Shown one piece after another: positions 1 to 28,993 of a DNA stretch of 37,863 nt; within the stretch, counting starts at the first letter, position 1, and every line of letters starts with the position of its first letter. The stretch comes from a virus (lineage: Duplodnaviria > Heunggongvirae > Uroviricota > Caudoviricetes). A model generated the notes under the pieces. It saw nothing but the letters and a program-made list of their open reading frames with translations, had not been told where the DNA came from and ran no database searches. Both the position numbers and the translations under genes were made by a program. Location of the stretch: positions 1 to 37,863 of IMG/VR virus record IMGVR_UViG_2684622552_000004, one strand, 5' to 3'.

Positions 1-1512
1 ATGATGTTAAATAATAAAAAACACTATTCAACATATATTTTGATATCAGTACTTATTATTATGTTACTGATAAGGGAGTTTTGGTTTGCTAGCAGACAGG
101 GACTACATATCGATGAGTCTCTGTCTTTTATCCTATCCGCCTATAAAGATTATGGATGGACAAAGGTTTTTGGTTCTCTAACAGAGATAACTGGTAGCCA
201 GGTACGGCAGTTGATATGGTTCAGTGACGATTCTATAAAAGGAATGCTTCGCGATGTATATCATTTGTGGCAAGATAACAGAGACACCCCTCATAGCAAT
301 CTATATTATTCATTATTAAGAATGTGGTTCACTGGGATAAATCCAGAAGGCAACACTTCATTTATAACAAACTGGGCATTTAAGCTTAACCAGTTATTTT
401 TCGTTGTTTCTTTTGTTGCCATATACGGCATAGCGAATAGGTTATTCAACAGTAAACAAATAGCAATATTGGTAGTTTTTGTTTCATTCATTAATACAGC
501 ATCTATATCAAACAGCATTTTTCTTAGACCATATCAAATGCAAGAAGCGCTTGTAGCGATATATACGCTTACCAGCCTAATTTTAATTAGAGAAAAATTA
601 TCATTGCGCTTATTGGTTATCCATTCAATTTCAACATCACTTGCAATGTTGAGCGGCTATTTTGCTCTATTTTATGTTGCAATGATTTCTGTTTTCTTAT
701 TTCCCTATTTAATTATAAAGTATAAAAATAATTTAAAAAACGCCATCTCATTTGCAGTAAAATACATCGCACTAACCTCGATTATTTCTTACGCGGTATA
801 TCCAAAATATTTTTTCGTTGATGGGAACAGGCAAGGAGAGGCATTAGATAAGCTTGGTAGTTTTAGCGACAACCTAGTTAATTCAGTAAAATCATTGTCT
901 ATGATTAATGACTTCTTTCCTATCGGGGTGTTAATCGCGCTAACAGTCATAGCGGTGTCATTGTTTTTTATTGTTAAGAATAAAAACATAATGAGTGAAA
1001 CTAATTACTTTGTATTTATTCTTGCATCAACCGTTATGATGTGGGTGATAATCGTGCAATTATTATCCCCATATAAGAACCTTGCTAGATATATATACCC
1101 ATCACTGCCTATGTTTGGTTTGTTTTACGGATATATAGTATTCAGCATATATAACAATTATAAATCAGTAAAGGCATTACCCATCATTGCATCAGTAGTT
1201 ATATTGATATCATCTACGTATTTATATTTTAATGGTGAAAAGGTCGATTATATTAATAAAAATAGAGAAAAAGATTGCGCCATTATTCCTGAACATAGTG
1301 TCATAATAGCAAAATCACCATGGAAAATGGGATACATTGCAACCTGCCTTAATTCAGAGGAAAAGTACGGAATGACTAATAATTTTGACTATAACATTTT
1401 CAAATCAAAAGGGTATACCACTATAATAAGCGACCAAGATATAACCAGCGAAAACGTTAAATTAGTTAATGGAAATGTCATGGTCTACTTCAAAAAATAC
1501 AGCATGAATTGA
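1..1512 (+). CDS. Polytopic membrane protein, putative O-antigen-modifying glycosyltransferase (GtrC-like serotype conversion)
   Basis: 503-aa ORF with many hydrophobic helices, visibly AT-rich versus the rest of the window. Convergent with the tailspike gene, the position GtrC occupies in P22-like prophages. Assignment is positional; no motif was verified. Confidence 0.4.
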   Translation: MMLNNKKHYSTYILISVLIIMLLIREFWFASRQGLHIDESLSFILSAYKDYGWTKVFGSLTEITGSQVRQLIWFSDDSIKGMLRDVYHLWQDNRDTPHSNLYYSLLRMWFTGINPEGNTSFITNWAFKLNQLFFVVSFVAIYGIANRLFNSKQIAILVVFVSFINTASISNSIFLRPYQMQEALVAIYTLTSLILIREKLSLRLLVIHSISTSLAMLSGYFALFYVAMISVFLFPYLIIKYKNNLKNAISFAVKYIALTSIISYAVYPKYFFVDGNRQGEALDKLGSFSDNLVNSVKSLSMINDFFPIGVLIALTVIAVSLFFIVKNKNIMSETNYFVFILASTVMMWVIIVQLLSPYKNLARYIYPSLPMFGLFYGYIVFSIYNNYKSVKALPIIASVVILISSTYLYFNGEKVDYINKNREKDCAIIPEHSVIIAKSPWKMGYIATCLNSEEKYGMTNNFDYNIFKSKGYTTIISDQDITSENVKLVNGNVMVYFKKYSMN

Positions 1513-1519
1513 TTAACAC

Positions 1520-1548
1520 GGCCCCATTATAGATGGGGCCACTTTTAG
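1520..1548. terminator. Bidirectional hairpin terminator between convergent genes
   Basis: Perfect 8-bp inverted repeat GGCCCCAT / ATGGGGCC with 5-nt loop, followed by CTTTT, in the 32-bp gap between the membrane-protein gene and the tailspike gene. Confidence 0.5.
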
Positions 1549-3980
1549 ATATTAGATGTTTGAATTATATCTGTATTCGCTTTATTGGAGGAAGGGTAAT
1601 TACAAGTAAATGTTGAATTCAATGTCGCATTTTCTCCAAACCATAGCTTATTTGTTGTACTAACAGAACCAGAGACAGATCCAGATATTTCCAATCCATT
1701 TATAGCATCTCTGAATGTATTTTTAACGCATCTAATGGTTTGATAATGAGATAACCATGACTGCCCTCCAGTATCCCTAAACAAACATGATGCTGCTGGT
1801 ACGCCAGGAGTTGATGAACTAATAAAATTACCTATCATTTCAAGGTAATTATATGGTCCAGTTAATGCAGTACCTGCAGGAAGGCTAGCAATGATATTGC
1901 CACCATTAAGGATGTTATTGTTTACCCTCATTATCTTTGGTGTATATCCTGACGGACTTATATCCAGTAAATATGAGTTATTCACACCAAAGTCATTATC
2001 ATTAATTTCAACCACACAGGAGCTTGAACATTTTATATTAAATCTTGTATAAGTCCCTTCAAATTTATTGCGATTTAACCTCACATAATTAAACCCATTG
2101 CCTAAGTTAGAATACATGCTACCGAAGAAGCGAGTTCCTGGTATTGCGTTATTCCATATGAATTTATTGGAATTGATATCCAGAGATGTTGAATAACTCC
2201 CGAAAGAAAATGAACAGTTCCTGAATTCATTCCCTTGAATTAATACTTTTTCAAAATTACTTACATGTAGATTGGCTGTTGAGGTTACTAAAAGCCTGCC
2301 CATGATATTGTTTGTTAGGCGCAGTGATGAGTTTGATATTTCTGGCTGGTCAACACCAATAATCATTCCATCACCAGTTATGTTTATTGTGTTATTATCA
2401 ATCCTCCAATCAGAGTTAGTTATATGAGTATAAATAGTCATAAAAGTAGGGGCTTGGAAAACATTATTCTCAATATTAACATTATAGGATGTCATCAAAT
2501 AATCGTTACTTCCAGAAGCACCCAATAAAAATATTCTATCCTTAGATAAAACAGTATTTCCGCTAATAGTTATAGCTCTTAACCAGTTAGTGTTAAACCA
2601 TTCCGTTCCTTTATTGTTGCTGATCATCATCCACATTCCATCACATGTTGCTGTGTTTCCTGTTACTGTGATCTGCCCCCATGGCTGAACCTGAGCAGCA
2701 CCAGTTCCGCCACCCGTATCAAATGCCATACAATAATCAATGATATCAAATGTATTGCCAGTAACTGTATATCTGTTAAAACCGAATCTACCTTTAACCG
2801 CTCCATTTCCGCGAGTATTTATTCTATTCCTGAAGGTATTACCTGTTACAGTAATATCACCAACCAGAATTCCATTACCCTGATCTGTAAATGCTGCTCC
2901 TGCGGTATAAACCGCATGGTCATACCATCCAAGAAATGAGCAACTAGACACTCGAAGGTTTCTGGCATTCCCTACAACACAACCACCAGGTGCGTCTTTA
3001 AAAACCATATCAAAAACGACCAGTCCTGACGTTTTTTTGTCATGGTTATAATATGTCTCTCCAGCAACTGGGATGTTACCATCAGGACCATGTATATAAG
3101 GAGATGTACCACCTGGTTCGATATCACCATAATAAGTTTGGTCTGGAATTCCTGTAGTGCTGCTGGTTCCCGATGCAGCAACTTCAATTGAACGTGCATT
3201 ACCATCAATTTGTAACCCATGCACCGACTGAGCACCTACAGCACCACTCAGGAATCGGAATAATTTACGGGTATCTCTTGCCGGATCAATCTCGGTCGTA
3301 GAACCTTCAACAAAGTATGTGCGATACCGGCGAGTAATAGTTGCTGAACCATCGCCCCATACTGAACGAACATATGACCATACATTAACAGCCGTATCAA
3401 AACAGTATATTCCAGTTGGGAAGTATACGGAGCATTTAAGATTATGCGCCTCATCCATGACCATCTGAACTTTAGGCTGATGGTTTATTGAAAGGTCACC
3501 AGATGCCAAAGCAGCCAGCTCTGCTTCGTTCATATATTTTGTAGCCAGAATACTTGGTGTCTTCTCTACATATTCATCAAGTGTTCCATATCGGGTGTTT
3601 ACAAGAGAACCATTGCCATTAGCTAATTCAAGGCGCAACTGGTCAGGATCGTATTTCAGTACATTAGGATAATAGAACTGCTGTGCCCCGTACGCATCAT
3701 AAACAGCCATAGAATGGCCTTTCACAGTTACGAACTTGGCAATCTGCCCGTTATATACAGGATATCCAGCAGCGTTAATGATGATTGGTTGCGAAACAGG
3801 AACGTGAGAACCATCTTCGTTCTCTATATAAACCTGAATCTGGTTTTCAGGATTTACCGGGTCAGTGTCAATTTTTCCGATATAAATTTTTCCATTGGCT
3901 ACGGCTTTAAAAGAACGCGCCATAGTGAAGAGTTGCGAAGGCATACTCACTACAACATTGGCATTTATTGAATCTGTCAT
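1545..3980 (-). CDS. Tailspike protein: P22 gp9-type N-terminal head-binding domain plus divergent beta-helix receptor-binding domain
   Basis: N-terminus [12 protein letters not shown]...[12 protein letters not shown]...DTDPVNP...[10 protein letters not shown]...VLKYDPDQ closely resembles the P22 tailspike head-binding domain. The rest has repeated VTGNTF / ISGNT / IDNNT rungs typical of parallel beta-helix O-antigen depolymerases. Start moved to internal ATG at 3980 (MTD...); the ORF track extends 15 codons upstream. Confidence 0.9.
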
Positions 3981-4067
3981 TTTAATTTCTCTATATGTTA
4001 AGCCAGCAATATTCATTGCTAGCATGTTTTTTGTATAATGAGTGCACTTTATTTAAAGGTGGTTAAC

Positions 4068-4577
4068 ATGAACTGGAACGAAGTATTCGTATTAAAAGAC
4101 GATGGACTCCTGTACTGGAGTGACCAATATCTTTCAAGACCCAAAATGTTCAATATCTCTAAAGAAAAGCCTGCAGGACATATATTCAAGGACAAGAACA
4201 GGAAAACCTCTTATATAATTATTAGGTATCAAGATAAAATATACGCCGCCCACAGGATAATATGGGAAATGTGTTATGGTGAAATCCCTTCCGGAATGCA
4301 AATTGACCATAAAGATGGTAATGGGTTAAATAATTCAATAGACAACCTGCGTCTAGTTAGTCTCGGTGAAAACCTAAAAAACAAATCTAAATACACAAAC
4401 AATACATCTGGGTGCGCAGGGGTTTCATGGCATAAGACCCATAAAAAGTGGGTGGCATATATTAGCGACGCAGGGAAGCGCATTAATCTCGGATACTTTA
4501 AGAGTCTCGATGATGCAATTGCTGTAAGGCGTGAGGCTGAAAAGACCTATGGTTATCATGAGAATCATGGTAGGTAA
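4068..4577 (+). CDS. HNH homing endonuclease with C-terminal AP2-like DNA-binding domain
   Basis: Motif IDHKDGNGLNNSIDNLRLVSLGENLKNKS (HNH His-Asn-Asn) followed by AP2-like segment SGCAGVSWHK...WVAYI...GKRINLGYF. SD AAAGGTGG 6 nt before the ATG at 4068. AT-rich, opposite strand to flanking virion genes. Confidence 0.8.
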   Translation: MNWNEVFVLKDDGLLYWSDQYLSRPKMFNISKEKPAGHIFKDKNRKTSYIIIRYQDKIYAAHRIIWEMCYGEIPSGMQIDHKDGNGLNNSIDNLRLVSLGENLKNKSKYTNNTSGCAGVSWHKTHKKWVAYISDAGKRINLGYFKSLDDAIAVRREAEKTYGYHENHGR

Positions 4578-4751
4578 TGTCTGTCATTTAATTTGCTCCA
4601 GACGTAGCAATGCGGAACAAGATGCAACTTGCCCGGCATTGCACTAATGTCAGTTATGATCTGTTAATTATGAGATGAGTCTATGCAAAGAGATCTGTTG
4701 AATATTGCGTTCTACATATTTGGTTTTTGCGCGTTCCTGGTGTTTGCGAAA

Positions 4752-6749
4752 CTATTCTGACAACGCATCAGACTTAGCGCCTTGGGTCAGCGCGTTAATG
4801 GCCTTTTGCGCCTGCTGCATGGCTTTCTCAAACGCTGTTGATCCGCGTGGGGTGTTTGCCATTCGGAGCATTGCATTTCTGAATGGCTCGCTCTCATAGG
4901 CGCGAGTAAGAAGTCCGTAGCTTACTGCTGCGCCAGTTGTTGCAGGGTTCATTGCCGTCCCATACCCGATAATGAACGGGATGGTTTGCTGGCCTGTGGG
5001 TGTTGTTACAGCCGCTTTTGCAGCCTGCTGCGTGGATTGAAGGTAGTTTTTCAATCCTTTCAGATAAGCGGCTTCCTGACCTTGAAATGTGATTCCAGTC
5101 TGGTTTTGCAGGATGTTAAGCTGTCGAAGGAACTGGTCAGGGGATCCGCCAGATTTCTCCATCGCCTTTCCAATGATGCCATTGCGCATTTGCGCCCTGC
5201 CAACACGACCAACTGAGTTATACAGAGTCTTAATTTCCGATTTGTTCTTGCTGAATAGCATGTTGTTGACAACTTCCGGCGTCAGGTCGCCTTTCATGAG
5301 AACATTCTTCAGCCTGGTATTTTTTAGTTTCTCCGCTTCGTCAGCGTAGACGGCATTGGCCTGCTGATATTTACGGAGAGTATCGTTGCCAAGATTCTGA
5401 CCAATGGCACCATTGATATCTTCGGTCATCGCCTTGTAAACTCGCTGAATGGCGGCATCGGAACGGTTTGGTAACACTGGTCGCTCCCCCTTCACGTCCA
5501 TTCTGAACTGGCTGCGCAGGTCGCTTAATTGCTTCAAATCCAGATTTACCGGACCATCAGGGCCAGCATTGCGAACAAGCTCATCACGATATGACTGAAG
5601 TTTTGAAATAGTCTCGTTATCAGCAACCTTACCAAGCTTCTGCAGGTTAGATATCTCAGTATCTATCTGCTGAATTGCTCGTGCAGGCTGAATGTTGACT
5701 CCTGCCATTGCATTCTGAACCTGCTCAAGACGGTTCCCAGCAGCACGACGAATTCCTGATGTTTTCGCTTTAAGGCTGTCAATAACAACCGCTGGATCAT
5801 ACTCACCGAATTTATCAGCAAATCTCTGAACCAACTGACTTCTCGCTTCCTGTTGCGTTGCTCTCATTCCGCTTGTGCCAGCCAGGGGGATATTTTCTGC
5901 TGTCGTTTGCGCCATTTTTCCGACGCGGGAAGTAGGCTGTAACAGGTCTGTGGTGTGCAGAGGCACTCCTTCACGCTCTGCAAATCTGATAGCTTGCTGC
6001 GCTTCTGGTGCAATAGCACCACGAACGCCACGATAAGCAGCGCCTAATCCACGTCCGGCAGCGTTAATAGTGCCGCCAGCCAGAACGCCAACGCCTAAAT
6101 CGGTAGCGAGTGCTTCCGCATCATCTTTCGCACTATTTGCAGCAAGTGACCCGACTGCGTTTTCAGCGATAAGGCGAGTTGCACCCTGAGCGATTCTACC
6201 AGCGAGTGTTGGTGCCTGTGTTGCCGCTCTCTCAATGCCAGCAGGAGTGAGGTAAGGCAATGCTTCAGCAAATACCCTTCCCTCTGTCGTTTGTGGAGTC
6301 AGCGCGCCTTGCTGAAGGCCAAAGTCCTGCTCTAATCCCTGCGTTGTTACTCGTGGCGCTGGTTGATATGTCCCATCGCCAATTCCGAGTTTACCGCCAG
6401 CCCAAGCCGCCGCGCTTGTTACAGCATCGGCAACTGATGCAGGTATGTTTGCCACGTTCACGCCAGCCTGCACCAGTCCGCGACCAGTCTCTTTTACTGC
6501 TTCGCCAAGATCAGACATAAATCCACTTTGCTGTGGTTGTTGCTGTGCTACTGGTTGCTGTGTCTCCACTGACTGCACAGATGGCAATGGATAGGCAGCA
6601 TAGAAAGCTTGCTTAGCCTGCTCTGCATTTTCTCCGGCTTGCGGGGCCACGACTTCATTGAAGTATTGCTCCTGAGCCTGCGCTTTTTGTTCTGGTGCTA
6701 ACGCCTGATACTGTGGAGAGGCGATAACATCTTTCCATGCTTTAGCCAT
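4752..6749 (-). CDS. DNA ejection (injection) protein, P22 gp16-like
   Basis: 665-aa ORF in the conserved position between gp20 and the tailspike; start codon overlaps the upstream stop (TAATG). Q/A-rich low-complexity N-terminus typical of ejection proteins. Confidence 0.7.
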   Translation of the reverse strand: MAKAWKDVIASPQYQALAPEQKAQAQEQYFNEVVAPQAGENAEQAKQAFYAAYPLPSVQSVETQQPVAQQQPQQSGFMSDLGEAVKETGRGLVQAGVNVANIPASVADAVTSAAAWAGGKLGIGDGTYQPAPRVTTQGLEQDFGLQQGALTPQTTEGRVFAEALPYLTPAGIERAATQAPTLAGRIAQGATRLIAENAVGSLAANSAKDDAEALATDLGVGVLAGGTINAAGRGLGAAYRGVRGAIAPEAQQAIRFAEREGVPLHTTDLLQPTSRVGKMAQTTAENIPLAGTSGMRATQQEARSQLVQRFADKFGEYDPAVVIDSLKAKTSGIRRAAGNRLEQVQNAMAGVNIQPARAIQQIDTEISNLQKLGKVADNETISKLQSYRDELVRNAGPDGPVNLDLKQLSDLRSQFRMDVKGERPVLPNRSDAAIQRVYKAMTEDINGAIGQNLGNDTLRKYQQANAVYADEAEKLKNTRLKNVLMKGDLTPEVVNNMLFSKNKSEIKTLYNSVGRVGRAQMRNGIIGKAMEKSGGSPDQFLRQLNILQNQTGITFQGQEAAYLKGLKNYLQSTQQAAKAAVTTPTGQQTIPFIIGYGTAMNPATTGAAVSYGLLTRAYESEPFRNAMLRMANTPRGSTAFEKAMQQAQKAINALTQGAKSDALSE

Positions 6750-25014: not shown

Positions 25015-25090
25015 GATTTACCCTCCCCCAAATAAAAAGGCCTGCGATTACCAGCAGGCCTGTTATTAGCTCAGTGATGTAGATGGTCAT
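25007..25090 (-). CDS. 27-aa hydrophobic peptide, translationally coupled to helicase gene
   Basis: MTIYITELITGLLVIAGLFIWGRVNRG; ATG overlaps the helicase stop (TGATG). SD AAGGAGGA is formed by the last helicase codons (KKKGGF). Below the ORF-track size cutoff. Confidence 0.35.
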   Translation of the reverse strand: MTIYITELITGLLVIAGLFIWGRVNRG

Positions 25091-26526
25091 CAGAATCCTC
25101 CTTTCTTCTTGGACTGCGGTTCCTCGCGTTCACGGCGGCGCATTTCAGCAGACTGTTGGTCTGTGTCATAAATAGCGCCATTTGCCTGAATGCAATACAC
25201 CGTGCCGGTATTGCCATGACGATTGAGACGAAGGATTAGTTCGGTTTCACCAGGTGGAACACTGTCATCAAAAGCACCTTCACGATGGATCCCCACCCAA
25301 TAATCGCAATCCTGCTCAATCTGCCCTGTATCTCGTGAGTCACTTGGTAGTGGGCGTTTATTGGTTCGGCTTTCCAGTGCGCGGTTAAGCTGCGTCAGAA
25401 GCACAACAACGCAATCAAGCTCTTTGGCAAGGTTCTTCAGTCCTTTGGTGATCATGCCGTAAGCAAGGTCGTTGCGATCGGCCTTCTCAGCGGTCATTAG
25501 TGTCAGGTAATCGACCAGAATCATGCCAACACATCCTTTTTCTCGCTTGATTCGACGGCTTTCGCTGACGATTTGAGCCAGAGATAATCCCGGCGTGTCG
25601 TCGATGTAAAGCATGTCGATTTCACTCAAGCGATTGGCTGTTTCGATCGCCCTGTTGAAGTCACCATCGTAATCACCCTGATAGCCGTCATCAGCGTCAT
25701 TTGTCGCCGGAAGGTAAAAAATATTCGGGTTAACACCTGACTTCTGTCCTACCAGTTTTTCCAGTATCTGGTCACCGGGCATTTCAAGGCTGAACATCAG
25801 AGCGGGCTTTTTCTCATGCACTGCGCAGTTGATTGCCATCTGGCTGTATAGCGTCGTTTTCCCCATCTTAGGGCGAGCGCCAATGACAAACAGAGAGCCT
25901 TTCACCAGACCTTTCGGTGACAGCATCCTGTCCAGCGATGGGATCCCGGTGCTCATTCCTCGTTGTTCGCCTGACGGGTCAAATCGCTTCTCAAGGTCGC
26001 TAACCCAGTCTTCCATGACCTCACCAAATGAGCGAAGGCCGCGACGCGATCCGGTTTTTGCATGGTCTGTCAGTTGCGTGAAAATCGACTGAATAGCTTC
26101 GTACTTCTGCGTTGCAGTCATTCCGTTGCGGGAATAGAGCAATTCCGTCGCTTCAGTCATGCGGTTGATGGCGTAGCGTTCCATTGCGGTTTCACGAACC
26201 TGCATTGCATAGGCAACGATGTTTGCTGCGCTTGGCGTGTTCTTTGCGATCTCAGCGATATAAGCAAAACCGCCAATAGACGCCGTTAACGATTTACGCT
26301 CCAGTTCATCGAAAAGCGTCAGGCCATCTACTGGCTTTTGCTCCCGGTGCATTCTGGTTATCTCTTCGAAAAGGATTTTGTGTGGTCGGCTGTAAAATGA
26401 ATCAGGCTTCAGCATCGCCAGAACTTTCTGGACGCGCTCACTGCTGTCATCATCCAGAAGCAATCCACCAATCACTGCCTGCTCTGCCTCGATGCTATTG
26501 GGCGGCGCATAAAAATTATCGGTCAT
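25090..26526 (-). CDS. Replicative DNA helicase, DnaB family (P22 gene 12-like)
   Basis: Walker A GARPKMGKTT, DnaB-like ...FSLEMPGDQILEKL... and C-terminal RecA-like motifs; start at ATG 26526 with SD GAGGGTG. Confidence 0.9.
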   Translation of the reverse strand: MTDNFYAPPNSIEAEQAVIGGLLLDDDSSERVQKVLAMLKPDSFYSRPHKILFEEITRMHREQKPVDGLTLFDELERKSLTASIGGFAYIAEIAKNTPSAANIVAYAMQVRETAMERYAINRMTEATELLYSRNGMTATQKYEAIQSIFTQLTDHAKTGSRRGLRSFGEVMEDWVSDLEKRFDPSGEQRGMSTGIPSLDRMLSPKGLVKGSLFVIGARPKMGKTTLYSQMAINCAVHEKKPALMFSLEMPGDQILEKLVGQKSGVNPNIFYLPATNDADDGYQGDYDGDFNRAIETANRLSEIDMLYIDDTPGLSLAQIVSESRRIKREKGCVGMILVDYLTLMTAEKADRNDLAYGMITKGLKNLAKELDCVVVLLTQLNRALESRTNKRPLPSDSRDTGQIEQDCDYWVGIHREGAFDDSVPPGETELILRLNRHGNTGTVYCIQANGAIYDTDQQSAEMRRREREEPQSKKKGGF

Positions 26527-27406
26527 CGTGTTCACCCTCACGAACTTTCAGGTAGGTATTGTCGTTAAGCAGGAAATCAAATCCCTTTTTGTGCCAGACG
26601 GTTCCACGTTGATGGTTTGGACGCTCTTCGAACATCCATCGGCAATTTTCGCCTACGTAGCTCAAATAATTTCTCCAGTCCTGCATCGTGAACCCATGCC
26701 CGTCAAGCTGGCGGGTTATCACTCCGGCTTTGCGCCAGAACGTTCGGATCTGGTTTTTACGCTTGTCATTCAGTGCGCGGATTTTTGGCGCTTCAGGAAG
26801 GATTTCGTGGTAAGCATCGACAACATCCTGACAGCTAACGGAAGGTTTTTTCTTGTCAGACTTTTTGTCTGCTGCGGTACTCTCTAATACGTCAGTATTA
26901 GAGATATTATTTATATTATTGTTTATGGACAACCGTTGGACAACCGTTGGACAATCTCCGCTGAGAGCCGCGCCATTACTGGTGTTTGCGTTGGACAACC
27001 GTTGGACACCCGTTGGACAATTTTTTGTCTGAAAATCGTCATATTTAACGATTGTAAACAGGCTAAATTTCTTCCCCATCGAGCAAATATTAAGCATCCC
27101 TTTCGACTCAAAAGTCCGCAATAAGCTCCGAACTTTGTTGTCGGGGATGAATGTTTCTCTGACCAGCGACGGGCGTCCAGTTATCATCTGACCGCGATCA
27201 ACAGTTATCGGACCGATATCCGTATTGACGACAGTAGATTCGTGATTAGCCTTGAGGATTAAGTGAAGCCAAAGATGTACTGCCTGAGAGTCCTTATAGA
27301 GCCTGCTGTCCATAAACTGGCGGTGTATAGAGACATACCCCATACTGGATGCCTCCTGATGTTGTACAGGGTTATGCCTGTAATCAGCTAACTTAACGAC
27401 GCCCAT
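26516..27406 (-). CDS. Replication initiation protein (lambda O / P22 gene 18-like)
   Basis: Position between cII and helicase; the gene contains direct-repeat iterons plus an AT-rich tract, as lambda O contains ori. Start ambiguous (27406 or 27343, both with good SD). Confidence 0.75.
   Translation of the reverse strand: MGVVKLADYRHNPVQHQEASSMGYVSIHRQFMDSRLYKDSQAVHLWLHLILKANHESTVVNTDIGPITVDRGQMITGRPSLVRETFIPDNKVRSLLRTFESKGMLNICSMGKKFSLFTIVKYDDFQTKNCPTGVQRLSNANTSNGAALSGDCPTVVQRLSINNNINNISNTDVLESTAADKKSDKKKPSVSCQDVVDAYHEILPEAPKIRALNDKRKNQIRTFWRKAGVITRQLDGHGFTMQDWRNYLSYVGENCRWMFEERPNHQRGTVWHKKGFDFLLNDNTYLKVREGEHDDR
26922..27075. repeat. Putative replication origin: 11-bp iterons CCGTTGGACAA plus AT-rich region
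   Basis: Copies at 26933-26943 and 26944-26954 (perfect, tandem), 26988-26998 and 26999-27009 (one mismatch each), 27010-27020 (perfect), partial copy at 26926-26932; followed by TTTTTTGTCTGAAAATCGTCATATTTAACGATTGTAAACA. Confidence 0.7.
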
Positions 27407-27554
27407 GTTTCACTCCTGCTTTGGCTAGTCTGTAAACACCAACAAGGCGCTCTGCGAACGCCCTGTTATTTGCTGCGGCTACCACTAATCCCTCAGGTGA
27501 ATCAGGGTGTCGAATCTCTTCTTTTTCCTGGTATTTCTTACGACGTTTTGTCAT
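27393..27554 (-). CDS. Candidate 53-aa basic protein in the cII-O intergenic region
   Basis: MTKRRKKYQEKEEIRHPDSPEGLVVAAANNRAFAERLVGVYRLAKAGVKHGRR; SD AGGAG 5 nt upstream of ATG. Below the ORF-track cutoff; could be fortuitous. Confidence 0.3.
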   Translation of the reverse strand: MTKRRKKYQEKEEIRHPDSPEGLVVAAANNRAFAERLVGVYRLAKAGVKHGRR

Positions 27555-27588
27555 AATTACTCCTGTGGATTGATCCAGTCTTTCTACA

Positions 27589-27867
27589 TCAGGCCTCGAA
27601 GAATTCGCCGTTCTTCGGGGCTTTTTCTTTTGTCAGCATTCTGGCTACTTGCTTAGCCAGTTCCGCCAACTCCTCGTCTTCAACACCCCATTCCAGCACA
27701 GCCAGAAGCATGGCCATCTTTGGGATAAAGCTGTCTTTCCATCGCGAAATTTGCGATTCATTGATCCCTAATGCATCAGCAACCTTTCGCTGACCACGTA
27801 CAGCAATTCGATTTAGGATGTTGCTTGTAATTGCATTCGCTTTCTTGCGAGTACTTGTAAGTTGCAT
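27589..27867 (-). CDS. cII: Transcriptional activator cII
   Basis: ...ADALGINESQISRWKDSFIPKMAMLLAVLEWGVEDEE... matches lambda cII (...SQISRWKRDWIPKFSMLLAVLEWGV...); start at internal ATG 27867. Confidence 0.85.
   Translation of the reverse strand: MQLTSTRKKANAITSNILNRIAVRGQRKVADALGINESQISRWKDSFIPKMAMLLAVLEWGVEDEELAELAKQVARMLTKEKAPKNGEFFEA
27597..27631 (+). terminator. Intrinsic terminator antisense to the cII 3' end (oop-like RNA terminator)
   Basis: Plus-strand CGAAGAA-TTCGCCG-TTCTTCG hairpin followed by GGGCTTTTTCTTTT, inside the cII coding region reading antisense, the arrangement of lambda oop. Confidence 0.45.
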
Positions 27868-27926
27868 ATGTAAGTATTTCCTTAACAAATAAGAAGTTAT
27901 GCGCACCAACTGATGCGCGTTGTATT

Positions 27927-27969
27927 CCCGCATTTCGGCGGGAATGAGGACCATGACTGTTAAAGAGCG
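27927..27969 (-). promoter_or_regulatory. nutR (boxA + boxB)
   Basis: Minus strand boxA CGCTCTTTAACA (27958-27969), then 15 nt, then boxB hairpin CCCGC-CGAAAT-GCGGG (27927-27942), between cro and cII. Confidence 0.6.
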
Positions 27970-27975
27970 GTGTTA

Positions 27976-28170
27976 CTATTTGTTTTTCTTGTTGCTTGGG
28001 AAAGGACGAACTTCCTCTCCAATCACACTGCCATCAGGCTTTACCGTAACCATAATGTTACGGCCTGCCAGAATGGCCTTGCTGATAGCGCACTGGATTA
28101 CACCAAAGTCACTGGCTGCTTTAGCCTGTCCATGGATTTTGGCGTAATCGGCAAGTGTCATTCGAATCAT
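27976..28170 (-). CDS. cro: Cro repressor
   Basis: [64 protein letters not shown] resembles lambda Cro (...[59 protein letters not shown]); start ATG 28170 with SD GGAGAG. Confidence 0.85.
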
Positions 28171-28199
28171 ATGCACTCTCCGTTATTAACCATGAACAA

Positions 28200-28276: not shown

Positions 28277-28993
28277 ATGGAAAATAAAAAATCACTGACG
28301 ACAGAACAGCTCGAAGACGCTAAGCGGCTTAAGGCTTTGTATGAGTCAAAAAAGAAAGAATTGGGAATAACCCAATACTCAATCGCTGATGAACTGGGTA
28401 TCACCCAAGGAGCGGTAGGGCATTATCTTAATGGCAGAAACGCGCTAAACGTTGAGGTTGCATCTGGTTTTGCACGACTGTTGCAAGTCTCAATTGCTGA
28501 TTTTAGCCAGTCAATTGCTGCCAAGGTTGCAGAACAGGCAGAAAGCCTTAAGAGCGATGCCAACGTAAGGTATGCAGGGGAATACAGAGCAGGAAAGAGG
28601 TATCCGGTGTTAAGCAGTATCCAGGCTGGCTCGTGGTGTGAAGCATGCGAACCATACACCATTAAAGACATAGATGTTTGGCTTGAGTCTGACGCGCATA
28701 TTCAAGGTAATGCGTTTTGGCTTAAAGTGGAAGGTGATTCAATGACGGCACCGGTTGGGTTAAGCATTCCAGAGGGAACATTCGTTCTTTTCGATACCGG
28801 AAGGGAGGCGATCAACGGCAGCTTGGTCATAGCAAAACTTTCTGACTCTAACGAAGCAACATTCAAGAAGCTGATAATCGACGGCGGAAATAAATACCTC
28901 AAGGGACTTAATCCTGCATGGCCTCTCGTGCCAATCAATGGAAACTGCAAGATTATAGGCGTTGCAATTGAGACAAAACTAAGGCTGGTTTGA
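28277..28993 (+). CDS. cI: cI-type repressor (HTH plus S24 LexA-like autopeptidase domain)
   Basis: N-terminal HTH (QYSIADELGITQGAVGHYLNG), C-terminal S24 domain with GDSM serine motif and conserved Lys (FKKL); divergent from cro across the operator region. Confidence 0.9.
   Translation: MENKKSLTTEQLEDAKRLKALYESKKKELGITQYSIADELGITQGAVGHYLNGRNALNVEVASGFARLLQVSIADFSQSIAAKVAEQAESLKSDANVRYAGEYRAGKRYPVLSSIQAGSWCEACEPYTIKDIDVWLESDAHIQGNAFWLKVEGDSMTAPVGLSIPEGTFVLFDTGREAINGSLVIAKLSDSNEATFKKLIIDGGNKYLKGLNPAWPLVPINGNCKIIGVAIETKLRLV

What the first reader, a model, noticed from the sequence alone, without database searches (positions are those of the whole stretch)
26922..27075. Replication origin embedded in the initiator gene
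Five full copies and one partial copy of an 11-bp iteron in two groups, followed by a T6 run and an AT-rich tract, lie inside the O-like gene. This is the lambda ori architecture. The iteron sequence defines replication specificity and differs from lambda.
Basis: partly seen in the sequence, partly recalled or inferred. Interest (0 to 1): 0.45.

Follow-up and report, generated by a model that had tools for sequence, protein, structure and literature searches.

The report
Known phage origin inside initiator gene

Summary
Six 11-bp units (gene-strand TTGTCCAACGG; five full, one truncated) form two triplets exactly 66 bp apart. They lie inside a 296-aa "O-like" gene (26516..27406, minus strand), directly upstream of a DnaB-family helicase gene.

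It is already known. The gene is 98.5-99% identical to those of Sf6, IME10 and HK75. The Sf6 GenBank record marks these same bases as a putative rep_origin, and the phage L paper (PMC8022706) describes the same six repeats as the likely origin. No experiment on this type was found.

Comparison of 35 loci from about 20 enterobacterial genera supports function:
- the 3+3 layout and 66-bp offset hold in 33 of 35;
- a CCA core is invariant in three reading frames;
- the core type follows the initiator's N-terminal domain, not its C-terminal domain.

Corrections:
- The initiator shows no pairwise or shallow-profile similarity to lambda O. Its N-domain matches the SPP1 G38P replisome organiser.

Interest is low.

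The parts
26516..27406 (-). O-like replication initiator gene (296 aa). The N-terminal domain is about aa 1-128. A linker, aa 129-176, is encoded by the origin elements. The C-terminal domain is about aa 177-296.
   Evidence: ORF list. PHROG 345 'replication initiation O-like', E 3.4e-85. N-domain aa 20-126 is 28% identical to SPP1 G38P, E 9e-13. 98.5-99.2% nucleotide identity to the O genes of IME10, HK75 and Sf6. AF2 model: C-domain pLDDT 82-92, aa 120-188 pLDDT 24-41.
26988..27020 (-). Iteron triplet 1, first in gene order: TTGTCCAACGG, GTGTCCAACGG, TTGTCCAACGC. The period is 11 bp.
   Evidence: The three units are read in three different codon frames. CCA is invariant at these offsets in 33 of 33 related loci.
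26955..26987 (-). Inter-triplet spacer. It is G+C-rich and variable in sequence, but its length is fixed, which keeps the triplets 66 bp apart.
   Evidence: GC about 0.61. It is the most variable part of the gene among 79 near-identical loci, 0.38 variable sites per site. The offset is exactly 66 in 33 of 35 loci when scanned from 44 to 99.
26926..26954 (-). Iteron triplet 2: TTGTCCAACGG, TTGTCCAACGG, and a truncated TTGTCCA.
   Evidence: This span plus triplet 1 corresponds to the rep_origin feature in the Sf6 record.
26905..26925 (-). AT-rich tract downstream of the iterons in the gene direction (TAAACAATAATATAAATAATA, GC 0.05). It is the candidate DNA unwinding element.
   Evidence: It ranks 4th of 37,842 among the least stable 21-bp duplexes in the window. 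It has 0 of 21 variable sites among 79 loci. A tract of 19-24 nt with GC 0.05-0.23 is present in 33 of 35 loci; for L110/L111 the automated parse was unreliable. It occupies the same position as lambda's AT-rich region.
26881..26904 (.). Perfect palindrome TCTCTAATAC-tgac-GTATTAGAGA next to the AT tract. It is the counterpart of lambda's origin palindrome.
   Evidence: pair I6. As a DNA hairpin its dG is -7.5 kcal/mol, z -6. Perfect arms of 9-11 nt occur in 35 of 35 loci, in 15 sequence versions. 9 of 10 pairs show compensatory changes, with covariation 0.729 against 0.178 in shuffles and 0 of 500 shuffles as high. Lambda's equivalent is L007 663-690.
27022..27075 (-). It lies upstream of the iterons in the gene direction and encodes the end of the N-domain (GKKFSLFTIVKYDDFQTKN).
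   Evidence: GC 0.30. Its duplex stability ranks about 1,100-4,800 of 37,842, which is unexceptional. A short A/T run before unit 1 is seen in all subtypes.
25090..26541 (-). Phage DnaB-family replicative helicase gene. It overlaps the end of the initiator gene by 26 nt, and no loader gene lies between them.
   Evidence: Pfam DnaB and DnaB_C. TIGR03600 phage_DnaB, E 3.9e-175, above its cut-off.

Best explanation
This is the origin of theta replication of a P22-like (Lederbergvirus-type) coliphage or prophage, embedded in its own initiator gene.

Proposed mechanism. All steps are inferred unless marked.
1. The N-terminal domain of the O-like protein recognises a 7-bp core (TGTCCAA, with CCA common to the whole family). 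The core repeats every 11 bp, about one helical turn, so three protomers would sit head to tail on one face of the DNA in each triplet.
2. The two triplets are held 66 bp apart and would form one higher-order nucleoprotein complex, comparable to lambda's O-some or the SPP1 G38P-oriL complex.
3. The strain opens the adjacent 21-bp tract of 5% GC (26905-26925).
4. The C-terminal domain of the initiator brings in the phage's own DnaB-type helicase. That helicase is encoded immediately downstream, with no separate loader gene between (gene layout shown).
5. The perfect palindrome next to the AT tract is part of the origin. Its role is unknown.

Because the origin lies in the linker-coding part of the gene, the linker peptide (aa 129-176) is largely dictated by the DNA elements.
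For: Shown by sequence and tools:
- The repeats are real and non-random.
- Units within a triplet are read in three different frames, so they cannot be a peptide repeat.
- In 33 of 35 loci from about 20 genera the 3+3 layout, the 11-bp period and the exact 66-bp offset are kept.
- CCA is invariant at all six positions in 33 of 33 loci. That includes 6 of 6 degenerate third-codon positions, against 2 of 43 in the rest of the gene (Fisher p = 2e-6).
- Six core types (TGTCCAA, TGTCCAG, GTGCCAA, TTACCAG, TTACCAA, AATCCAA) follow the N-domain: 74% identity within a type against 53% between types. They do not follow the C-domain, where between-type identity reaches 99%.
- HK022, HK620 and VT2-Sakai share the C-terminal half at 97% up to the edge of the iterons, but carry a different N-domain and different iterons in the same geometry.
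- Among 79 near-identical loci the cores vary less (0.14 variable sites per site) than the 4-nt inter-core segments (0.31) or the inter-triplet spacer (0.38). The AT tract and palindrome are almost invariant, 1 of 45 sites.
- The AT tract is the 4th least stable 21-mer of the window.
- The palindrome covaries strongly.
- Lambda has the same order of elements in the gene direction.
- The N-domain is homologous to SPP1 G38P. SPP1 gene 38 itself shows 4-5 repeats with an 11-bp period followed by an AT-rich tract.

From the literature:
- SPP1 gp38 binds the direct repeats of oriL, which lies inside gene 38 next to an AT-rich unwinding element. Theta replication was reconstituted from oriL with gp38, gp39 and gp40 (PMC6316719).
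- Genetic data cited in PMC8022706 (Hilliker 1981) indicate that the phage L 18-12 region is a self-contained replication module of its own specificity.
- Sf6, HK620 and phage L records annotate the same repeats as putative rep_origin.
Against: - The literature searches here, limited to the open-access library, found no binding, unwinding or replication assay for this initiator/iteron type. All database origin features are labelled 'putative'.
- The N-domain fold could not be checked: AF2 pLDDT was 30-50 with a shallow alignment, and there are no solved relatives.
- Which of the two flanking AT tracts melts is inferred from stability, conservation and analogy with lambda only.
- Natural variants with one or three triplets exist, so the two-triplet complex is not obligatory.
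- The plasmid collection holds no record that matches the N-terminal, iteron-containing half of the gene. The single hit covers only the C-terminal half.
Confidence: 0.85

Rival explanations
1. The initiator binds the repeats, but the duplex opens at the reader's tract (T6 plus 27022-27075), upstream of the iterons in the gene direction. On this view the + strand order 'iterons, then T6, then AT tract' is the functional one.
For: The tract is AT-rich (GC 0.25-0.33 in 40-bp windows). A short A/T run directly before unit 1 is present in all subtypes.
Against: Its duplex stability is unexceptional, ranking about 1,100-4,800 of 37,842, whereas the downstream tract ranks 4. It encodes the conserved end of the N-domain (FSL..KYDDFQ), so protein constraint can explain its conservation. 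In lambda the AT-rich region and palindrome lie downstream of the iterons in the gene direction. The downstream tract, of 19-24 nt, is present in 33 of 35 loci, and the palindrome in all 35.
Confidence: 0.08
2. The repeats are initiator-binding sites used for something other than initiation, and the true origin lies elsewhere in the genome. Possible roles are autoregulation of the early operon, origin 'handcuffing', or a fork barrier that triggers the switch to rolling-circle replication, as proposed for gp38 bound at SPP1 oriR.
For: SPP1 has two gp38-binding regions. One of them, oriR, is proposed to stall forks (PMC6316719). Binding sites inside a gene could block its transcription.
Against: There is no second cluster of the core anywhere in the 37.8-kb window. 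The repeats are coupled to an extreme AT tract and a palindrome in the canonical origin order in the loci compared. The phage L genetics cited in PMC8022706 place the origin within the 18-12 module.
Confidence: 0.05
3. The repeats have no function at the DNA level. They only reflect a duplicated peptide (CPTxVQRLS) in a flexible linker, or are a by-product of slippage or recombination at a mosaic junction.
For: The two triplets are 22 codons apart and do encode a duplicated peptide. The 66-bp module varies in copy number from 1 to 3. A mosaic junction lies at the edge of the repeats.
Against: Within a triplet the 11-bp units are read in three different frames. Degenerate third positions inside the cores are invariant across 33 loci, while amino-acid-changing positions between the cores vary (p = 2e-6). 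The core type switches together with the N-domain.
Confidence: 0.02

Closest known systems
Putative origins annotated in Shigella phage Sf6 (gene 43), coliphage HK620 (gene O) and Salmonella phage L (gene 18)
   Same: Sf6 has the same gene at 98.5% nucleotide identity, the same six TGTCCAACGG-type units and the same position. The Sf6 rep_origin feature maps to window 26926-27021. Phage L has the same core in the same 3+3 and 66-bp geometry, described in PMC8022706 as six imprecise 11-bp repeats, TGTCCAACGGA. HK620, HK022 and VT2-Sakai ('Eru3A/B' in PMC8044961) share the C-terminal half, the palindrome and the helicase type.
   Different: The window has a private variant in unit 2 (GTGTCCAACGG), which gives Gly instead of Val. 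HK620-type phages carry TTACCAG-type cores and an N-domain only about 50% identical. All of these origins are 'putative'; none has been tested.
Bacteriophage lambda ori and O protein
   Same: - The origin lies inside the initiator gene, between the parts that code for the N- and C-terminal domains: lambda aa 117-145, here aa 129-161.
- The order in the gene direction is the same: iterons, AT-rich tract, then a palindrome with a 4-nt loop.
- The module sits in the same place in the early right operon, after cro, cII and the conserved oop promoter sequence.
   Different: - Lambda has four units of about 19 bp, each with a dyad, spaced 20-24 bp apart. Here there are six contiguous 11-bp direct repeats in two triplets.
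- BLASTP and hhalign find no similarity and Pfam Phage_rep_O is not hit. The only link is that lambda O matches the PHROG 345 profile (E 5e-17).
- The partner here is a phage DnaB-type helicase, not lambda P, which recruits host DnaB (lambda mechanism from established knowledge).
- The AT tract is 21 bp here against about 40 bp in lambda.
Bacillus phage SPP1 replisome organiser G38P and oriL
   Same: - The N-terminal domain is homologous: 28% identity over 110 residues, E 9e-13, hhalign probability 97.8%.
- oriL lies inside gene 38, just after the part that codes for the N-domain. It has 4-5 direct repeats with an 11-bp period, followed by an AT-rich tract.
- gp38 binding to these repeats and oriL-dependent theta replication are experimentally established (PMC6316719).
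   Different: - The repeat core differs: GACA-type in SPP1.
- SPP1 has one run of repeats, not two triplets.
- No palindrome was found in SPP1 gene 38.
- SPP1 has a separate loader, G39P, between the organiser and the helicase. Here the two genes overlap.
- The C-terminal domains differ: Phg_2220_C in G38P, not hit here.
- SPP1 has a second site, oriR.

Membership tests
Sf6 / phage L / HK620-type O-like replicon (PHROG 345 initiator with six 11-bp iterons and a DnaB-type helicase) | Full-length match of the initiator to the family | tested here: met
   phrog_345 E 3.4e-85 over aa 1-296. 98.5-99.2% nucleotide identity to Sf6, IME10 and HK75.
Sf6 / phage L / HK620-type O-like replicon (PHROG 345 initiator with six 11-bp iterons and a DnaB-type helicase) | Six 11-bp repeats in the middle of the gene, at the position annotated as rep_origin in Sf6, HK620 and phage L | tested here: met
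   Units at 27020-26988 and 26954-26926. The Sf6 feature maps to 26926-27021. The 3+3 layout and 66-bp geometry are shared by 33 of 35 loci.
Sf6 / phage L / HK620-type O-like replicon (PHROG 345 initiator with six 11-bp iterons and a DnaB-type helicase) | A phage DnaB-family helicase gene immediately downstream | tested here: met
   TIGR03600, 582.9 bits against a cut-off of 498.65. The genes overlap by 26 nt.
Sf6 / phage L / HK620-type O-like replicon (PHROG 345 initiator with six 11-bp iterons and a DnaB-type helicase) | Origin activity and initiator binding | not testable with these tools
   No experiment on this type was found in the searched literature.
Lambda-type origin (ori lambda and the O protein family) | Initiator-binding repeats inside the initiator gene at the boundary between the N- and C-terminal domains | tested here: met
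   aa 129-161 here against aa 117-145 in lambda.
Lambda-type origin (ori lambda and the O protein family) | An AT-rich tract and then a palindrome downstream of the iterons in the gene direction | tested here: met
   26905-26925 (GC 0.05) and 26881-26904 here. Lambda: L007 622-662 and 663-690.
Lambda-type origin (ori lambda and the O protein family) | Four spaced iterons of about 19 bp, each with internal dyad symmetry | tested here: not met
   Here there are contiguous 11-bp direct repeats with no dyad conserved across subtypes.
Lambda-type origin (ori lambda and the O protein family) | Initiator belongs to Pfam Phage_rep_O (PF04492) | tested here: not met
   No hit at E <= 0.01, whereas lambda O scores 5.7e-36. 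BLASTP E 4.6. hhalign probability 0.1%. A cross-hit of lambda O to the PHROG 345 profile (5e-17) leaves remote homology open.
Lambda-type origin (ori lambda and the O protein family) | Partner is a lambda P-type protein that recruits host DnaB | tested here: not met
   The downstream gene is itself a DnaB-family helicase.
SPP1 G38P / oriL-type replisome-organiser origin | N-terminal origin-binding domain homologous to G38P | tested here: met
   BLASTP E 9e-13. hhalign probability 97.8% over 110 columns.
SPP1 G38P / oriL-type replisome-organiser origin | Tandem direct repeats inside the organiser gene, followed by an AT-rich unwinding element | tested here: met
   An 11-bp period in both. The function of the SPP1 repeats is taken from PMC6316719.
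SPP1 G38P / oriL-type replisome-organiser origin | A separate helicase-loader gene (G39P) between the organiser and the helicase | tested here: not met
   The initiator and helicase ORFs overlap and no ORF lies between them (compared).
SPP1 G38P / oriL-type replisome-organiser origin | C-terminal Phg_2220_C domain (PF09524) | tested here: not met
   Present in G38P (2e-20) and absent here.
Plasmid iteron origins (RepA or pi-type initiators) | Iterons of 17-22 bp together with host DnaA boxes or IHF sites near an AT-rich region | tested here: not met
   The units are 11 bp. No DnaA-box or IHF-consensus match lies near the origin. No plasmid in PLSDB matches the N-terminal, iteron-containing half of the gene.

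The most novel reading that the evidence does not exclude
The family-wide features seen here may define a widespread enterobacterial origin class that is related to SPP1 G38P/oriL rather than to lambda O. Those features are:
- contiguous 11-bp head-to-tail units with an invariant CCA;
- a strictly fixed 66-bp module that occurs in 1, 2 or 3 copies;
- a perfectly maintained, covarying palindrome beside the AT tract.

In such a class the initiator would polymerise as monomers along one face of the DNA, unlike lambda's dimers on dyad iterons. The palindrome would act as an extruded hairpin or cruciform that is required for loading the phage helicase without a loader. This would give a function to the equivalent, still unexplained palindrome of ori lambda.
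Probability: 0.25. Interest if true: 0.4.

Novelty: already known. Interest (0 to 1): 0.15.

Why it matters
For this window it matters little. The element is the putative origin already annotated in Sf6, HK620 and phage L, in a gene 98.5-99% identical to published phages.

The comparative data add some value. They give the first quantitative support I could find that these never-tested repeats are under DNA-level selection and co-vary with the initiator's N-terminal domain. They also locate the likely unwinding tract and a covarying palindrome, and they link the family to the experimentally characterised SPP1 organiser.

The same replicon type, with other iteron cores, is carried by Stx2 phages such as VT2-Sakai ('Eru3'). 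A defined origin and specificity code could therefore help in typing or manipulating replication of medically relevant prophages.

Tried and rejected
- I first assumed the window was of the P22 gene 18 / ori type. This was rejected: the related Salmonella hits are phage L, ST64T and ST160, and PMC8022706 states that L gp18 is only 25% identical to P22 gp18, which has four repeats of about 20 bp. My first fetch of P22 used the wrong coordinates and I did not pursue it.
- Homology to lambda O: BLASTP and hhalign were negative and Pfam was negative. Only a PHROG profile cross-hit was found, so this is left as inconclusive.
- Solved structures: none for this family or for lambda O.
- AF2 with a 16-sequence alignment gave a confident C-domain but an unusable N-domain. 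Foldseek against PDB found nothing. Against BFVD it gave only weak, low-TM hits to phage 'replisome organizer' proteins. No claim about the fold is made.
- Plasmid collection: one hit only, covering the C-terminal half, so there is no natural-plasmid evidence for autonomous replication.
- Correlation between the initiator's C-domain and the first 75 residues of the helicase across loci was weak (rho 0.10). My extraction of the helicase fragments was crude, so this is inconclusive.
- Rfam and tRNA scans of the window found nothing.
- There are no DnaA boxes or IHF sites near the origin.
- A dyad in the window's own iterons (CAAC-G-GTTG, spanning unit junctions) is not conserved in other subtypes, so I dismissed it.
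- Folding the iteron region as single-stranded DNA is not remarkable (z = -1.96).
- The 1994 HK022 paper (PMC523588) is not held in the library.
Full report
**1. What is in the sequence**

Window 26516..27406 (minus strand) is a 296-aa ORF. It overlaps by 26 nt the start of a 483-aa DnaB-family helicase gene, 25090..26541 (minus strand). That gene hits Pfam DnaB and DnaB_C and TIGR03600 phage_DnaB at 3.9e-175.

Upstream on the same strand lie, in order:
- a Cro-family gene (27976..28176);
- a CII-family gene (27589..27954);
- a 53-aa ORF (27393..27554).

A divergent S24/HTH repressor gene lies at 28277..28993. This is the early right operon of a lambdoid phage, read right to left in the window. 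The rest of the window is a mosaic P22-like (Lederbergvirus) genome, closest to IME10.

**2. The repeats**

On the + strand, TGGACAACCGT occurs at 26926, 26937 and 26992, TGGACACCCGT at 27003, and truncated TGGACAAT at 26948 and 27014. On the gene strand the units are:
- 27020-27010, TTGTCCAACGG;
- 27009-26999, GTGTCCAACGG;
- 26998-26988, TTGTCCAACGC;
- 26954-26944, TTGTCCAACGG;
- 26943-26933, TTGTCCAACGG;
- 26932-26926, truncated TTGTCCA.

That is five full copies and one partial copy, in two triplets exactly 66 bp apart.

Chance does not explain this. The 11-mer with up to 1 mismatch gives 5 hits against 0.52 expected, and 0 of 100 shuffles reach 5. CGTTGGACA occurs five times, all here, and nowhere else on either strand.

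**3. Orientation**

It also encodes the conserved end of the N-terminal domain (…FSLFTIVKYDDFQTKN).

- A 21-bp tract of 5% GC at 26925-26905 (TAAACAATAATATAAATAATA). It ranks 4th of 37,842 among the least stable 21-bp duplexes of the window.
- A perfect palindrome at 26904-26881, TCTCTAATAC-tgac-GTATTAGAGA. As a DNA hairpin its dG is -7.5 kcal/mol, z = -6.

In phage lambda, read in the direction of gene O, the order is:
- four iterons;
- an AT-rich region of about 40 bp;
- a palindrome with 12-nt arms and a 4-nt loop.

The lambda-like architecture is therefore present here, on the low-coordinate side of the repeats.

**4. Already annotated and described**

The gene is 98.0-99.2% identical to the O genes of IME10, HK75, HK629, HK106, mEp234, Sf6 and others.
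- The Sf6 record AF547987 carries a rep_origin feature, 'putative; repeat region reminiscent of the phage lambda origin; similar to phage HK620'. It maps to window 26926-27021.
- HK620 and phage L carry equivalent features.
[quoted passage not shown] It also says that L gp18 is 15% identical to lambda O and 25% identical to P22 gp18, and cites genetic evidence that the L 18-12 region works as a module of its own specificity (PMC8022706).
- A full-text search for the iteron string found that paper as the only phage-related match among the ten listed.
- The HK022/VT2-Sakai version of the replicon is what PMC8044961 calls Eru3A/Eru3B. That paper does not mention iterons.

I found no binding or replication experiment on this type.

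**5. Evidence that the repeats are selected as DNA**

(a) The period of 11 bp is not a multiple of three. The three units of a triplet are read in three different frames. Only the 66-bp offset (22 codons) gives a peptide duplication, CPTGVQRLS / CPTVVQRLS.

(b) I collected 29 loci from a one-genome-per-species scan and added the window and five phages. In 33 of these 35, a free scan of offsets from 44 to 99 bp returns the 3+3 layout with an 11-bp period and an offset of exactly 66. The two exceptions, from Silvania and Leclercia, use a 12-bp period.

(c) CCA is invariant at offsets 30, 41, 52, 96, 107 and 118 from the KYDD codon in 33 of 33 loci, in frames 0, 2 and 1. All six degenerate third-codon positions inside these CCAs are invariant. 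Only 2 of 43 invariant-residue, degenerate codons elsewhere in the gene are (Fisher p = 2e-6). Meanwhile, positions between the cores that change the amino acid do vary.

(d) Among 79 near-identical loci from viral contigs, the fraction of variable sites was:
- inter-triplet spacer, 0.38;
- 4-nt inter-core segments, 0.31;
- 7-bp cores, 0.14;
- AT tract, 0 of 21;
- palindrome, 1 of 24;
- the two protein domains, 0.13-0.145 overall and 0.25-0.29 at third positions.

**6. Specificity**

The cores fall into six sequence types: TGTCCAA (the window), TGTCCAG, GTGCCAA, TTACCAG, TTACCAA and AATCCAA.
- N-domain identity averages 74% within a type and 53% between types.
- Every TGTCCAA locus is at least 72% identical to the window in the N-domain. 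Every other type is at most 59%.
- The C-domain does not track the type: between-type identity reaches 99%.

The clearest case is HK022, HK620 and VT2-Sakai. Their DNA matches the window at about 97% from the stop codon up to 26926, the edge of the last iteron. They then switch to a different N-domain (50% identical) and to TTACCAG-type repeats in the same geometry. ENT47670 is the converse case: N-domain 82% identical, C-domain 56%, same core.

**7. The palindrome**

All 35 loci have a perfect inverted repeat, with arms of 9-11 nt and a loop of 2-4 nt. In 33 of them it sits directly after an AT tract of 19-24 nt (GC 0.05-0.23). For L110/L111 the automated parse was unreliable.

There are 15 distinct sequence versions. 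On a gap-free alignment:
- 96.7% of cells pair;
- 9 of 10 pairs show changes on both sides;
- the covariation score is 0.729, against 0.178 ± 0.037 in shuffles, with 0 of 500 shuffles as high;
- slid controls reach at most 0.19.

The encoded peptides differ widely, so the symmetry is kept at the nucleic-acid level. Its role is open:
- a hairpin or cruciform involved in helicase loading or priming;
- a terminator for antisense transcription, since the consensus scan flags the hairpin plus T-rich tail on the + strand and the phage L record annotates a terminator there;
- an mRNA hairpin;
- a co-evolving symmetric protein-binding site.

**8. The initiator**

- Pfam finds no Phage_rep_O domain. 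There is only a sub-threshold DUF7376 hit.
- BLASTP against lambda O gives E 4.6, and hhalign gives probability 0.1%.
- Lambda O does match the profile of PHROG 345, the window protein's family, at 5e-17 over aa 16-169. Remote homology is therefore not excluded.
- The N-domain (aa 20-126) is clearly homologous to SPP1 G38P: 28% identity, E 9e-13, hhalign probability 97.8%.
- SPP1 gp38 binds direct repeats of oriL that lie inside gene 38 next to an AT-rich unwinding element. Theta replication has been reconstituted from oriL with gp38, gp39 and gp40 (PMC6316719).
- In the SPP1 sequence I see 4-5 units with an 11-bp period (core GACA) right after the part that codes for the N-domain, followed by an AT-rich tract.
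- Unlike SPP1, the window has no loader gene between the initiator and the helicase, and the C-terminal domains differ.
- The AF2 model was confident only for the C-domain (pLDDT 82-92). The linker encoded by the origin (aa 120-188) scored 24-41 and the N-domain 30-50, so no claim about fold is made. Fold searches added nothing firm. No relatives have solved structures.

**9. Mechanism (inferred)**

- N-domain protomers bind the 7-bp cores once per helical turn, head to tail, three per triplet.
- The two triplets, held at a fixed 66 bp, build one nucleoprotein complex.
- The adjacent tract of 5% GC melts.
- The C-domain recruits the phage's DnaB-type helicase.
- There are no DnaA boxes or IHF consensus sites nearby.

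Natural alleles with one triplet (274 and 277 aa) and with three triplets (318 aa; DNA seen in L089) exist. The 66-bp module is therefore a unit of variation, and two triplets are not obligatory.

**10. Verdict**

It remains experimentally untested.

Confidence that it is the origin recognised by the initiator's N-domain is about 0.85. Interest is low (0.15). The modest additions here are the family-wide geometry, the invariant CCA, the co-variation of N-domain and core, the covarying palindrome and the link to SPP1.

Noticed in passing
window 26881-26904 (and L007 663-690 in lambda): A perfect palindrome lies beside the AT tract. It is kept in 35 of 35 related loci in 15 sequence versions, with compensatory changes at 9 of 10 pairs. 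Its function is unknown. On the + strand (antisense to the gene), the hairpin plus T-rich tail also scores as terminator-like.
   Followed up: yes
L089; proteins P0001-P0022 (318 aa), P0032-P0042 (274 aa), P0093 (277 aa): The 66-bp iteron module varies in copy number. Alleles exist with one, two or three triplets (3, 6 or 9 units). The three-triplet form is seen in DNA in L089. The one-triplet form is inferred from the protein sequences.
   Followed up: partly
L110 (Silvania hatchlandensis) and L111 (Leclercia MAG), central part of the O-like gene: In these two loci the ATTACCA-type units are spaced 12 bp apart rather than 11, so the units there are read in one frame. They are the only exceptions to the 11-bp and 66-bp geometry.
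   Followed up: partly
window 27552-27630: There is an oop-like antisense RNA locus. The 28-nt sequence conserved at the lambda/HK620 oop promoter and 5' end is present exactly at 27552-27579 (minus strand). A 14-bp-stem terminator-like hairpin with a T-run lies at 27591-27623 on the + strand, antisense to the 3' end of the cII-like gene.
   Followed up: partly
window about 26905-26926: A mosaic junction lies here. HK022, HK620, VT2-Sakai and many Stx phages match the window at about 97% from the end of the initiator gene up to the edge of the last iteron. Beyond that point they diverge completely (different N-domain and different iterons).
   Followed up: yes
window 1-4577: This is a low-GC (33-42%) accessory region. 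It holds a 503-aa ORF (1..1512, + strand) with no Pfam hit, a P22-type tailspike (1545..4025, minus strand; Head_binding domain) and an HNH endonuclease with an AP2 domain (4038..4577, + strand).
   Followed up: partly
L094 (contig labelled Chryseobacterium sp. 18061) and L121 (501-bp contig labelled Catenulispora yoronensis): Enterobacterial-type O-like genes, 85% identical in L094, turn up in assemblies labelled as Bacteroidota and Actinomycetota. Contamination or mislabelling is the likely cause.
   Followed up: no
window 27009-26999 (unit 2): The window's second unit starts with G (GTGTCCAACGG, giving Gly133). All 79 near-identical viral-contig loci have T at that position (Val). Position 1 of the unit also varies (T, A or G) across the TGTCCAA type.
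   Followed up: partly
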